IMG/VR virus record: IMGVR_UViG_3300045012_000066
Span: 1 to 64,000 of that record
From: a virus
Strand: one strand, 5' to 3'
DNA length: 64,000 bases
Positions 19,345 to 19,540 of this stretch are shown in pieces (the stretch's first letter is position 1; each line of letters starts with the position of its first letter). Position numbers and translations under genes: made by a program. Below the pieces are notes generated by a model. That model was not told the DNA's origin. It searched no databases and saw nothing but the letters and a program-made list of their open reading frames with translations.

Positions 19345-19400
19345 TAATTACTTTGTATAAGTAATTACGCTTGACACGATAGTGAGTATCAAGTTAGCTT
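19345..19400 (+). promoter_or_regulatory. sigma70-like promoter with upstream palindrome
   Basis: TAATTAC-N9-GTAATTA palindrome, then TTGACA (19371)-18-TAGCTT. Confidence 0.6.
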
Positions 19401-19409
19401 AACTTTGCA

Positions 19410-19478
19410 ATGACGATCTTAGCCACTCACGGTTACTGGATGCGAGCGGGAAAACCGCAGCAGAATACATCCGTGTAA
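19410..19478 (+). CDS. second leader peptide MTILATHGYWMRAGKPQQNTSV
   Basis: 22-aa ORF starting near the predicted TSS, followed by an antiterminator/terminator pair. Confidence 0.55.
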   Translation: MTILATHGYWMRAGKPQQNTSV

Positions 19479-19508
19479 GTGGCTTGGGTCGTACCTCAAC
19501 GTTTCCAC

Positions 19509-19540
19509 CCCAAGCCTAAGAACTTGGGGTTTTTGTTTGT
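19509..19540 (+). terminator. intrinsic terminator (attenuator)
   Basis: CCCCAAG-cctaagaa-CTTGGGG followed by TTTTTTGTTT. Confidence 0.8.

What the first reader, a model, noticed from the sequence alone, without database searches (positions are those of the whole stretch)
19345..19540. Second attenuator with a codon-diverse leader: possible general translation-damage sensor for the Y RNA/Ro60 operon
Seen: same architecture as the first leader (ATG-ACN-ATN start near the TSS, 22 codons, ending GTG-stop). The peptide uses 16 different amino acids. GGCTTGGG (19481-19488), just after the stop, is perfectly complementary to CCCAAGCC (19510-19517) in the terminator. Inference: a ribosome reaching the stop masks the antiterminator, so transcription terminates. 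Stalling at any codon, or global shut-off, permits read-through into the pseudo-tRNA, the Y RNAs and Ro60.
Basis: partly seen in the sequence, partly recalled or inferred. Interest (0 to 1): 0.8.

Follow-up and report, generated by a model that had tools for sequence, protein, structure and literature searches.

The report
Candidate leaderless leader-peptide attenuator in phage
A soil phage carries a roughly 125-base unit (promoter, 22-codon mini-gene, three competing RNA hairpins, terminator) built like a trp-type attenuator; it probably lets transcription continue only when ribosomes are slow, but nothing shows that it is translated or that it controls the Ro60/Y-RNA genes.

Summary
A 22-codon ORF (19410-19478) starts 33 nt after a perfect TTGACA, the same spacing as the Ser-rich leader 560 nt upstream. 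An intrinsic terminator lies at 19507-19540. GGCTTGGG (19481-88) is complementary to CCCAAGCC (19509-16), inside the terminator's 5' arm; shuffles reach this in 0.7% of trials.

This gives the full 1:2 / 2:3 / 3:4 layout of a classical attenuator. In a masking model, no ribosome or a ribosome at the stop gives termination, and a ribosome held in codons 1-11 or 18-20 frees the antiterminator. "Global shut-off gives read-through" is therefore not supported.

A ribosome-mediated attenuator is my best reading (about 0.5). The promoter's -10 is weak and there is no Shine-Dalgarno sequence. Only near-identical (97.6%) strains carry the element, and no RNA data exist. Related Ro60/Y-RNA loci have plain promoters and no leader. 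The gene directly downstream is a small conserved basic protein, and the "pseudo-tRNA" is not supported.

Earlier notes of this scan report leader-peptide attenuators before phage tRNA genes on other DNA. None reports this element.

The parts
19346..19368 (.). Perfect 9-bp inverted repeat TAATTACTT-N5-AAGTAATTA just upstream of the -35; possible operator, not part of the RNA switch
   Evidence: Read. The sister phage has 19360 A>G.
19371..19376 (+). -35 hexamer TTGACA of the putative promoter P2
   Evidence: Same 33-nt distance to the ATG as at leader 1 (18807).
19395..19400 (+). Candidate -10 TAGCTT (18-nt spacer, 3 of 6 matches); the predicted start is about 19406-19409, so the mRNA would be near-leaderless
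   Evidence: Read. The promoter scan did not call it, so this is an inference.
19410..19478 (+). 22-codon leader ORF plus TAA, with no Shine-Dalgarno sequence
19413..19432 (+). Region 1: 5' arm of the large hairpin (codons 2-8)
19471..19492 (+). Region 2: 3' arm of the large hairpin. It includes the stop codon and the antiterminator core GGCTTGGG (19481-88).
19507..19516 (+). Region 3: terminator 5' arm (19507-14) overlapping the antiterminator partner CCCAAGCC (19509-16)
19523..19540 (+). Region 4: terminator 3' arm (19523-30) and T-tract
19666..19890 (+). First gene downstream: 74-aa conserved basic protein (phrog_16066) with its own GGAGG
18807..18970 (+). Sister module: promoter, 21-codon leader with 9 Ser codons and a strong terminator, followed by tRNA-Ser, tRNA-Ser, tRNA-Glu and tRNA-Lys

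Best explanation
The element is a ribosome-mediated (leader-peptide) transcription attenuator of the trp type, read from a near-leaderless 22-codon ORF. Transcription starts a few bases before the ATG. If no ribosome loads, region 1 pairs with region 2, the terminator (regions 3:4) forms, and a roughly 125-nt RNA is released. If a ribosome keeps pace with the polymerase and reaches the last codons or the stop, it covers region 2 and the terminator again forms. If the ribosome is held up early in the ORF (or at codons 18-20), region 1 is covered while region 2 is free. Region 2 then pairs with region 3 before region 4 is made, and the polymerase reads through into the 74-aa protein gene and possibly the tRNA-like, Y-like RNAs and Ro60 beyond. 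The leader has no run of one codon, so it would report slow elongation in general rather than shortage of one amino acid or tRNA. Shown: the sequence features, the alternative pairings and their non-randomness. Inferred: promoter activity, leaderless translation, kinetic competition, and which genes are controlled.
For: All four regions are present and mutually exclusive: 1:2 at -39.7, 2:3 at -12.8 and 3:4 at -12.3 kcal/mol. On the transcript up to 19520, ribosome masking gives P(2:3) = 0 without a ribosome, 0.9 for A-site codons 1-11 and 18-19, 0.79 for codon 20, and 0 for codon 22 and the stop. Switch behaviour arose in 1 of 300 shuffles and the 8-nt complement in 0.66% of shuffles. The stop codon lies 2 nt before the antiterminator core, so a terminating ribosome masks it. 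A second module 560 nt upstream has the same -35-to-ATG spacing, the same ATG-ACN-ATN start and the same GTG-stop end. Its leader has 9 Ser in 21 codons and sits in front of two tRNA-Ser genes, which ties that leader to translation. Leaderless expression is plausible in this phage: an HTH_3 gene starts 29 nt after another TTGACA. In two natural variants, the differences within the transcript from the predicted start to the end of the terminator stem (19407-19530) fall only in the terminator loop. There is also one base upstream of the -35 and one extra T in the T-tract.
Against: The -10 is weak and the promoter scan did not call it. There is no Shine-Dalgarno sequence, and the large hairpin starts 3 nt after the AUG, so a ribosome must load before region 2 is transcribed. 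At equilibrium on the full transcript the terminator wins at every stall position (P at least 0.65), so the switch depends on kinetic trapping. There are no regulatory codons. The element and its peptide were found only in strains 97.6% identical. About 2 changes would be expected in the 83-nt core, so the invariance is not significant. Homologues of the downstream gene and related Ro60 loci lack it.
Confidence: 0.5

Rival explanations
1. It is a stand-alone small RNA gene. The promoter and terminator produce a roughly 125-nt RNA (a large 5' hairpin, a 14-nt single-stranded linker and a terminator hairpin) that acts in trans. The ORF is incidental.
For: It is a self-contained promoter-to-terminator cassette and the RNA is strongly structured (z = -4.07). 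The neighbourhood is rich in RNA genes. There is no Shine-Dalgarno sequence. L004 has a similar promoter, structured RNA and T-run unit (z = -5.6).
Against: It does not explain the 8-bp complement to the terminator arm (P = 0.007). It also does not explain the ORF start at the predicted transcript start, the stop next to region 2, or the shared design with the Ser leader. The hairpin lacks the two composite motifs shared by all six Y-like RNAs of the locus. There is no YrlA hit at E up to 10. GGTTACT occurs at background frequency. This reading is not exclusive of an attenuator, since terminated leaders can also act as sRNAs.
Confidence: 0.22
2. It is simply the terminator of the tRNA operon, preceded by a processing or stabilising hairpin such as an RNase III site. 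TTGACA, the ORF and the 2:3 complement are coincidences.
For: The terminator lies 180 nt after the last tRNA. The -10 is weak. A 22-codon open frame after an ATG is not rare in itself. Long, nearly perfect hairpins are typical processing sites. The 8-mers of its arms recur in the hairpin at 21650-80.
Against: TTGACA at exactly the same 33-nt offset from an ATGAC in two modules is very unlikely when only 14 TTGACA occur per 122 kb strand. The switch statistics also argue against coincidence.
Confidence: 0.15
3. It is an RNA switch flipped by something other than the ribosome. A protein or RNA that binds or melts the 19413-92 hairpin would free region 2 and cause antitermination.
For: The three-state structure itself does not need translation. 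The inverted repeat and the small conserved basic protein gene nearby could encode regulators.
Against: No known riboswitch, T-box or leader family matches. The positions of the ORF start and stop are then unexplained.
Confidence: 0.1

Closest known systems
Classical leader-peptide attenuators of amino-acid operons (trpL, hisL, pheL, leuL; textbook knowledge)
   Same: A short ORF near the transcript start. Pairings 1:2 (anti-antiterminator), 2:3 (antiterminator) and 3:4 (intrinsic terminator). A stop codon placed so that a terminating ribosome masks region 2. Termination also occurs when no ribosome loads.
   Different: No run of regulatory codons. No Shine-Dalgarno sequence (leaderless). Region 1 starts at codon 2, so almost the whole ORF acts as the timer. 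It is encoded by a phage and lies in front of non-biosynthetic genes.
Ribosome-mediated attenuators induced by translation inhibitors (B. subtilis vmlR, PMC9226507; yxjB, PMC6851288)
   Same: A leader ORF without amino-acid-specific codon runs. Any drug-induced stall frees an antiterminator, so the signal is impaired translation.
   Different: Those control antibiotic-resistance genes in bacteria, have ribosome-binding sites and have been shown experimentally. Here the target is a phage small protein and RNA cluster, and nothing has been tested.
Ser-rich leader before the tRNA-Ser/Glu/Lys genes of the same phage (18807-18970), and similar phage tRNA leaders noted by this scan on other DNA
   Same: The same promoter-to-ATG spacing, the same start and end codons, similar ORF length and a terminator followed within about 12 nt by the next RNA gene.
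   Different: Leader 1 is enriched in the codons read by the tRNAs behind it. Leader 2 has no such bias and no tRNA gene directly behind it.
RtcR control of the Salmonella rsr-yrlBA-rtcBA operon (PMC7790460) and TrcR control of the Anabaena trn operon (PMC8421152, PMC10272220)
   Same: Ro60/Y-RNA or spare-tRNA modules are switched on when tRNAs or translation are damaged.
   Different: Those use protein transcription factors (a sigma-54 activator and a repressor), not a leader-peptide attenuator.

Membership tests
Leader-peptide (ribosome-mediated) transcription attenuator | Intrinsic terminator between the promoter and the controlled genes | tested here: met
   8-bp G+C-rich stem plus TTTTTGTTTGT at 19507-19540, -12.3 kcal/mol.
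Leader-peptide (ribosome-mediated) transcription attenuator | Antiterminator pairing that excludes the terminator | tested here: met
   The 19481-88 / 19509-16 pairing covers 6 of the 8 terminator pairs and has -12.8 kcal/mol. P = 0.0066 in shuffles.
Leader-peptide (ribosome-mediated) transcription attenuator | Anti-antiterminator (1:2) overlapping the leader ORF | tested here: met
   The 19413-32 / 19471-92 hairpin has -39.7 kcal/mol. The switch statistic arose in 1 of 300 shuffles.
Leader-peptide (ribosome-mediated) transcription attenuator | Short ORF with translation start signals near the transcript start | tested here: inconclusive
   The ORF is present. There is no Shine-Dalgarno sequence, so leaderless initiation must be assumed. 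It is supported only by analogy with the HTH gene at 5535.
Leader-peptide (ribosome-mediated) transcription attenuator | Stop codon placed so that a terminating ribosome masks region 2 | tested here: met
   TAA is at 19476-78 and the core at 19481-88. The masking model gives P(2:3) = 0 at codon 22 and at the stop.
Leader-peptide (ribosome-mediated) transcription attenuator | Cluster of regulatory codons cognate to the controlled function | tested here: not met
   There are 16 different residues and no run. Codon usage is ordinary; TTA and CGA have the lowest relative usage.
Leader-peptide (ribosome-mediated) transcription attenuator | Read-through depends on translation of the leader | not testable with these tools
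   No RNA run holds the locus. An experiment is needed.
Leader-peptide (ribosome-mediated) transcription attenuator | Structure kept in diverged homologues | tested here: inconclusive
   Only 97.6%-identical strains carry it. No diverged homologue was found.
Y RNA / YrlA (Rfam RF02553) | Match to the family model, or the locus-specific Y motifs (TAGTGA or GGTG.AG ... TACTTC; TGTTC before the closing stem) | tested here: not met
   No hit at E up to 10 in 19410-19492. Both composite motifs are absent there but present in all six Y-like units.
tRNA or pseudo-tRNA directly after the terminator (19541-19650) | Cloverleaf detectable by ARAGORN or the Rfam tRNA model | tested here: not met
   Searches give no call. 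The fold has z = -0.11.

The most novel reading that the evidence does not exclude
The phage carries two tiers of translation sensing. A Ser-codon leader gates its own tRNA genes. Directly behind it, a codon-unbiased, leaderless 'translation speedometer' gates a small basic protein, tRNA-like and Y RNAs and Ro60. RNA quality-control genes would then be switched on whenever host ribosomes slow down, for example after a host tRNA-cleaving defence. That would be a leader-peptide counterpart of RtcR control of rsr-yrlBA-rtcBA.
Probability: 0.25. Interest if true: 0.75.

Novelty: new variant of a known kind. Interest (0 to 1): 0.5.

Why it matters
If real, this would be a phage using the bacterial attenuation principle as a general gauge of ribosome speed rather than to sense one amino acid. 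It would also be placed in front of an RNA-repair and quality-control cluster. How phage Ro60/Y-RNA modules are regulated, and when they are needed, is unknown. A translation-stress switch would give a direct, testable link to host anticodon nucleases and other translation-targeting defences. The element is small (about 170 bp), so it can be tested in vitro even though the host is unknown.

Tried and rejected
- Y-RNA identity of the hairpin: rejected. There is no YrlA hit and the composite motifs are absent. GGTTACT and TAGTGA occur at background frequency.
- Homologues of the leader: none were found beyond near-identical strains.
  - The DNA word search found only the sister phage and a chance hit in a portal gene.
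  - Back-translated peptide patterns found only the sister phage.
  - The gene upstream of leader 1 found only the sister phage.
  - Homologues of the downstream 74-aa protein, 14 viral and 24 metagenome loci, sit in unrelated contexts with no leader.
  - The genome-contig scan gave two marginal hits.
  - blastn against the phage collection matched only Ro60 and tRNA pieces.
- Population variation from four soil DNA runs: too little divergence to test covariation.
- RNA evidence: no RNA holder is listed for this stretch.
- Module 2 as a decayed copy of module 1 plus tRNA-Ser: the alignment is unconvincing.
- Equilibrium folding as a test of the switch: the terminator always wins, so only the kinetic model discriminates.

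Full report
**Setting.**
- The window is the first 64 kb of a 122,463-bp phage genome.
- The finding lies in a plus-strand block that reads, in order:
  - a gene of unknown function (18183-18794);
  - module 1 (promoter, Ser-rich 21-codon ORF, strong terminator, 18807-18970);
  - tRNA-Ser(GCU), tRNA-Ser(CGA), tRNA-Glu and tRNA-Lys (18975-19328);
  - module 2, which is the finding;
  - a 74-aa protein gene (19666-19887);
  - tRNA-like and six Y-RNA-like units interspersed with small ORFs (19941-21640; sub-threshold YrlA hits);
  - a hairpin with a poor T-run (21650-80);
  - a TROVE plus vWA (Ro60) gene (Pfam; likely start ATG 21714 behind a GGAGG).

**Observation.**
- The ORF runs from 19410 to 19478: 22 sense codons, MTILATHGYWMRAGKPQQNTSV, 16 different residues.
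- It begins ATG-ACG-ATC and ends GTG-TAA. Leader 1 begins ATG-ACC-ATG and ends GTG-TAG.
- In both modules a perfect TTGACA ends 33 nt before the ATG. This strand of the genome holds only 14 TTGACA, and a pattern search finds exactly these two promoter-ATGAC units on it.
- The terminator is an 8-bp stem (19507-14 / 19523-30), an 8-nt loop and TTTTTGTTTGT.
- GGCTTGGG lies at 19481-88.
- A perfect complement this long, overlapping the terminator's 5' arm, arose in 33 of 5000 dinucleotide shuffles of the leader.
- Sixteen distinct residues among 22 is only mildly unusual for this phage's amino-acid composition (P = 0.034).

- The minimum-energy fold of the transcript is dominated by a long hairpin. 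It pairs 19413-32 (codons 2-8) with 19471-92, which holds the last two codons, the stop and the antiterminator arm.
- Alone this hairpin has -39.7 kcal/mol. The whole RNA folds with z = -4.07.
- The element therefore has all four regions of a classical attenuator: 1:2, 2:3 (-12.8 kcal/mol) and 3:4 (-12.3 kcal/mol).

**Mechanistic model.**
- I masked a 30-nt ribosome footprint at each A-site codon and folded the RNA made up to 19520, the point where region 3 is out and region 4 is not.

| Ribosome state | P(2:3 antiterminator) |
|---|---|
| No ribosome | 0.00 |
| A-site codons 1-11 | 0.90-0.92 |
| A-site codons 12-16 | 0.04 or less (the lower stem re-closes around the ribosome, which may be sterically unrealistic) |
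| A-site codon 17 | 0.45 |
| A-site codons 18-19 | 0.92 |
| A-site codon 20 | 0.79 |
| A-site codon 21 | 0.07 |
| A-site codon 22 and stop | 0.00 |

- I scored the difference in upstream pairing of the terminator's 5' arm between a masked and an unmasked 5' end. It was reached by 1 of 300 shuffled leaders.
- At equilibrium on the complete transcript the terminator forms at every stall position (P at least 0.65). As in trp, any switch must therefore be kinetic: 2:3 forms first and blocks 3:4.
- Predicted logic: termination when translation is healthy and also when no ribosome loads; read-through when a loaded ribosome lags behind the polymerase.

**Is it translated?**
- There is no direct evidence.
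- For translation:
  - The ATG sits at the predicted transcript start in both modules.
  - The stop is placed correctly for masking.
  - Leader 1 has 9 Ser among 21 codons in front of two tRNA-Ser genes, which is hard to explain without translation.
  - An HTH_3 gene begins 29 nt after another TTGACA, with TATTCT as its -10. It is therefore leaderless, so this phage-host pair probably uses leaderless mRNAs.
- Against translation:
  - The -10 (TAGCTT, 18-nt spacer) matches only 3 of 6, and the promoter scan did not call the site.
  - There is no Shine-Dalgarno sequence.
  - The large hairpin starts 3 nt after the AUG, so a ribosome must bind before region 2 is made.

**Comparative evidence.**
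- The only relatives that carry the element are near-identical.
  - The sister phage (IMG/VR 3300031823_000002; loci L001, L006, L008, L024, L049) is 97.6% identical over 7 kb.
  - Contigs from soil DNA runs add two more variants.
- Across 19345-19540 the sister-type variants differ at 19360 (upstream of the -35), at 19520 (terminator loop, outside both the 2:3 and 3:4 pairs) and by one extra T after 19535.
- The 83-nt ORF-plus-hairpin core is invariant, but only about two changes would be expected there, so this is not significant.
- In leader 1 the single ORF change is synonymous (CTC to CTT). The other changes lie in the apical part of a hairpin.
- Back-translated peptide patterns, a DNA word and the upstream gene all retrieved only the sister phage.
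- Homologues of the downstream 74-aa protein form a well-conserved family, phrog_16066. Members occur in many phage contigs, and the source record of one hit names a Terriglobus genome. Their contexts are unrelated and none has a leader.
- Related Ro60 loci place a promoter directly in front of the Y-RNA array, without a leader ORF or terminator. This holds for L002 and L003 (67% identity), L004 (53%) and Caulobacter phage CcrColossus.

**What would be controlled.**
- The stretch right after the terminator (19541-19650) is not a detectable tRNA. Its fold is unremarkable (z = -0.11).
- The first gene is the 74-aa basic protein, which has its own GGAGG.
- The Y-like RNAs start 400 nt further on. 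A weak promoter-like site (TAGACG-16-TAAATT, 19905-32) precedes the first of them.
- Ro60 lies behind a further terminator-like hairpin (21650-80). L002 and L003 have the same arrangement.
- Control of 'the Y RNA/Ro60 operon' is therefore possible but not shown.

**Rivals.**
- Stand-alone sRNA (0.22). This fits the promoter-to-terminator cassette and the strong structure. It leaves the 2:3 complement and the ORF geometry unexplained.
- tRNA-operon terminator plus a processing hairpin (0.15). This requires the identical TTGACA-to-ATG spacing in two modules to be chance.
- A switch flipped by a protein or RNA (0.10). This leaves the ORF unexplained.
- A seventh Y RNA. Rejected.

**Comparison with known systems.**
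- Mechanistically the element resembles trp-type attenuators (textbook knowledge). In sensing translation in general, it resembles the inhibitor-responsive attenuators of vmlR and yxjB (PMC9226507, PMC6851288).
- Known stress control of Ro60/Y-RNA or spare-tRNA modules uses protein regulators: RtcR (PMC7790460) and TrcR (PMC10272220, PMC8421152).
- Phage Y RNAs next to Ro60 are established (PMC4201824, PMC12135203).
- Earlier notes of this scan report leader-peptide attenuators in front of phage tRNA arrays on other DNA. I used them only as leads. They concern codon-matched leaders like module 1, not a codon-unbiased one like this.

**Verdict.**
- If real, this is a new variant of a known kind. 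Confidence in a ribosome-mediated attenuator is about 0.5. Confidence that it gates Ro60 and the Y RNAs as a general translation-stress sensor is about 0.25. Interest is 0.5.

Noticed in passing
window 19346-19368: Perfect 9-bp inverted repeat TAATTACTT-N5-AAGTAATTA directly upstream of the -35 of module 2. It may be an operator. The sister phage has a mismatch in it (19360 A>G).
   Followed up: no
window 21650-21680; L002 about 1091-1120; L003 about 1001-1030: A terminator-like hairpin sits between the last Y-like RNA and the Ro60 start (ATG 21714, GGAGG 21702-06). The 67%-identical relatives have the same arrangement. In the window, the hairpin arms share the 8-mers AGCCACTC and AGTGGCTT with the arms of the module-2 hairpin (19421, 19478).
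   Followed up: partly
window 20042-20175: The tRNA-like element (Rfam tRNA, 40.8 bits, 20047-20108) seems to close its acceptor stem GGCGGGA (20042-48) with TCCCGCC (20165-71), followed by TCCA. That implies an insertion of about 55 nt after the T arm.
   Followed up: no
window 5500-5807: An HTH_3 (Cro/CI-type) gene starts 29 nt after a TTGACA with TATTCT as its -10. It is a probable leaderless mRNA, divergent from the gene at 4212-5432.
   Followed up: partly
window 19666-19887: A 74-aa basic protein of a tightly conserved family (phrog_16066; invariant E13, D15, A16, T18, W20, R21, G29, K35, R41, R43). It occurs in many unrelated phage contigs, and the source record of one hit names a Terriglobus genome. 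Function unknown.
   Followed up: partly
L004 3413-3575: In a phage with a 53%-identical Ro60, a promoter-like site is followed by a branched, very stable RNA (z = -5.6) closed by a 19-bp helix and a T-run, upstream of an unrelated gene. This may be another structured RNA cassette.
   Followed up: partly
window 19905-19940: A weak promoter-like site (TAGACG, 16 nt, TAAATT) lies immediately before the first Y-like unit. The Y RNAs may therefore have their own start.
   Followed up: no
L048 (Caulobacter phage CcrColossus) 3309-4560: A TTGACA promoter is followed by about eight tandem Y-like units (GGTGGCGTAG ... TACTTCG ... GTTCCCCC) before the TROVE gene. The annotated 'tRNA-Gln' lies inside this array.
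   Followed up: partly
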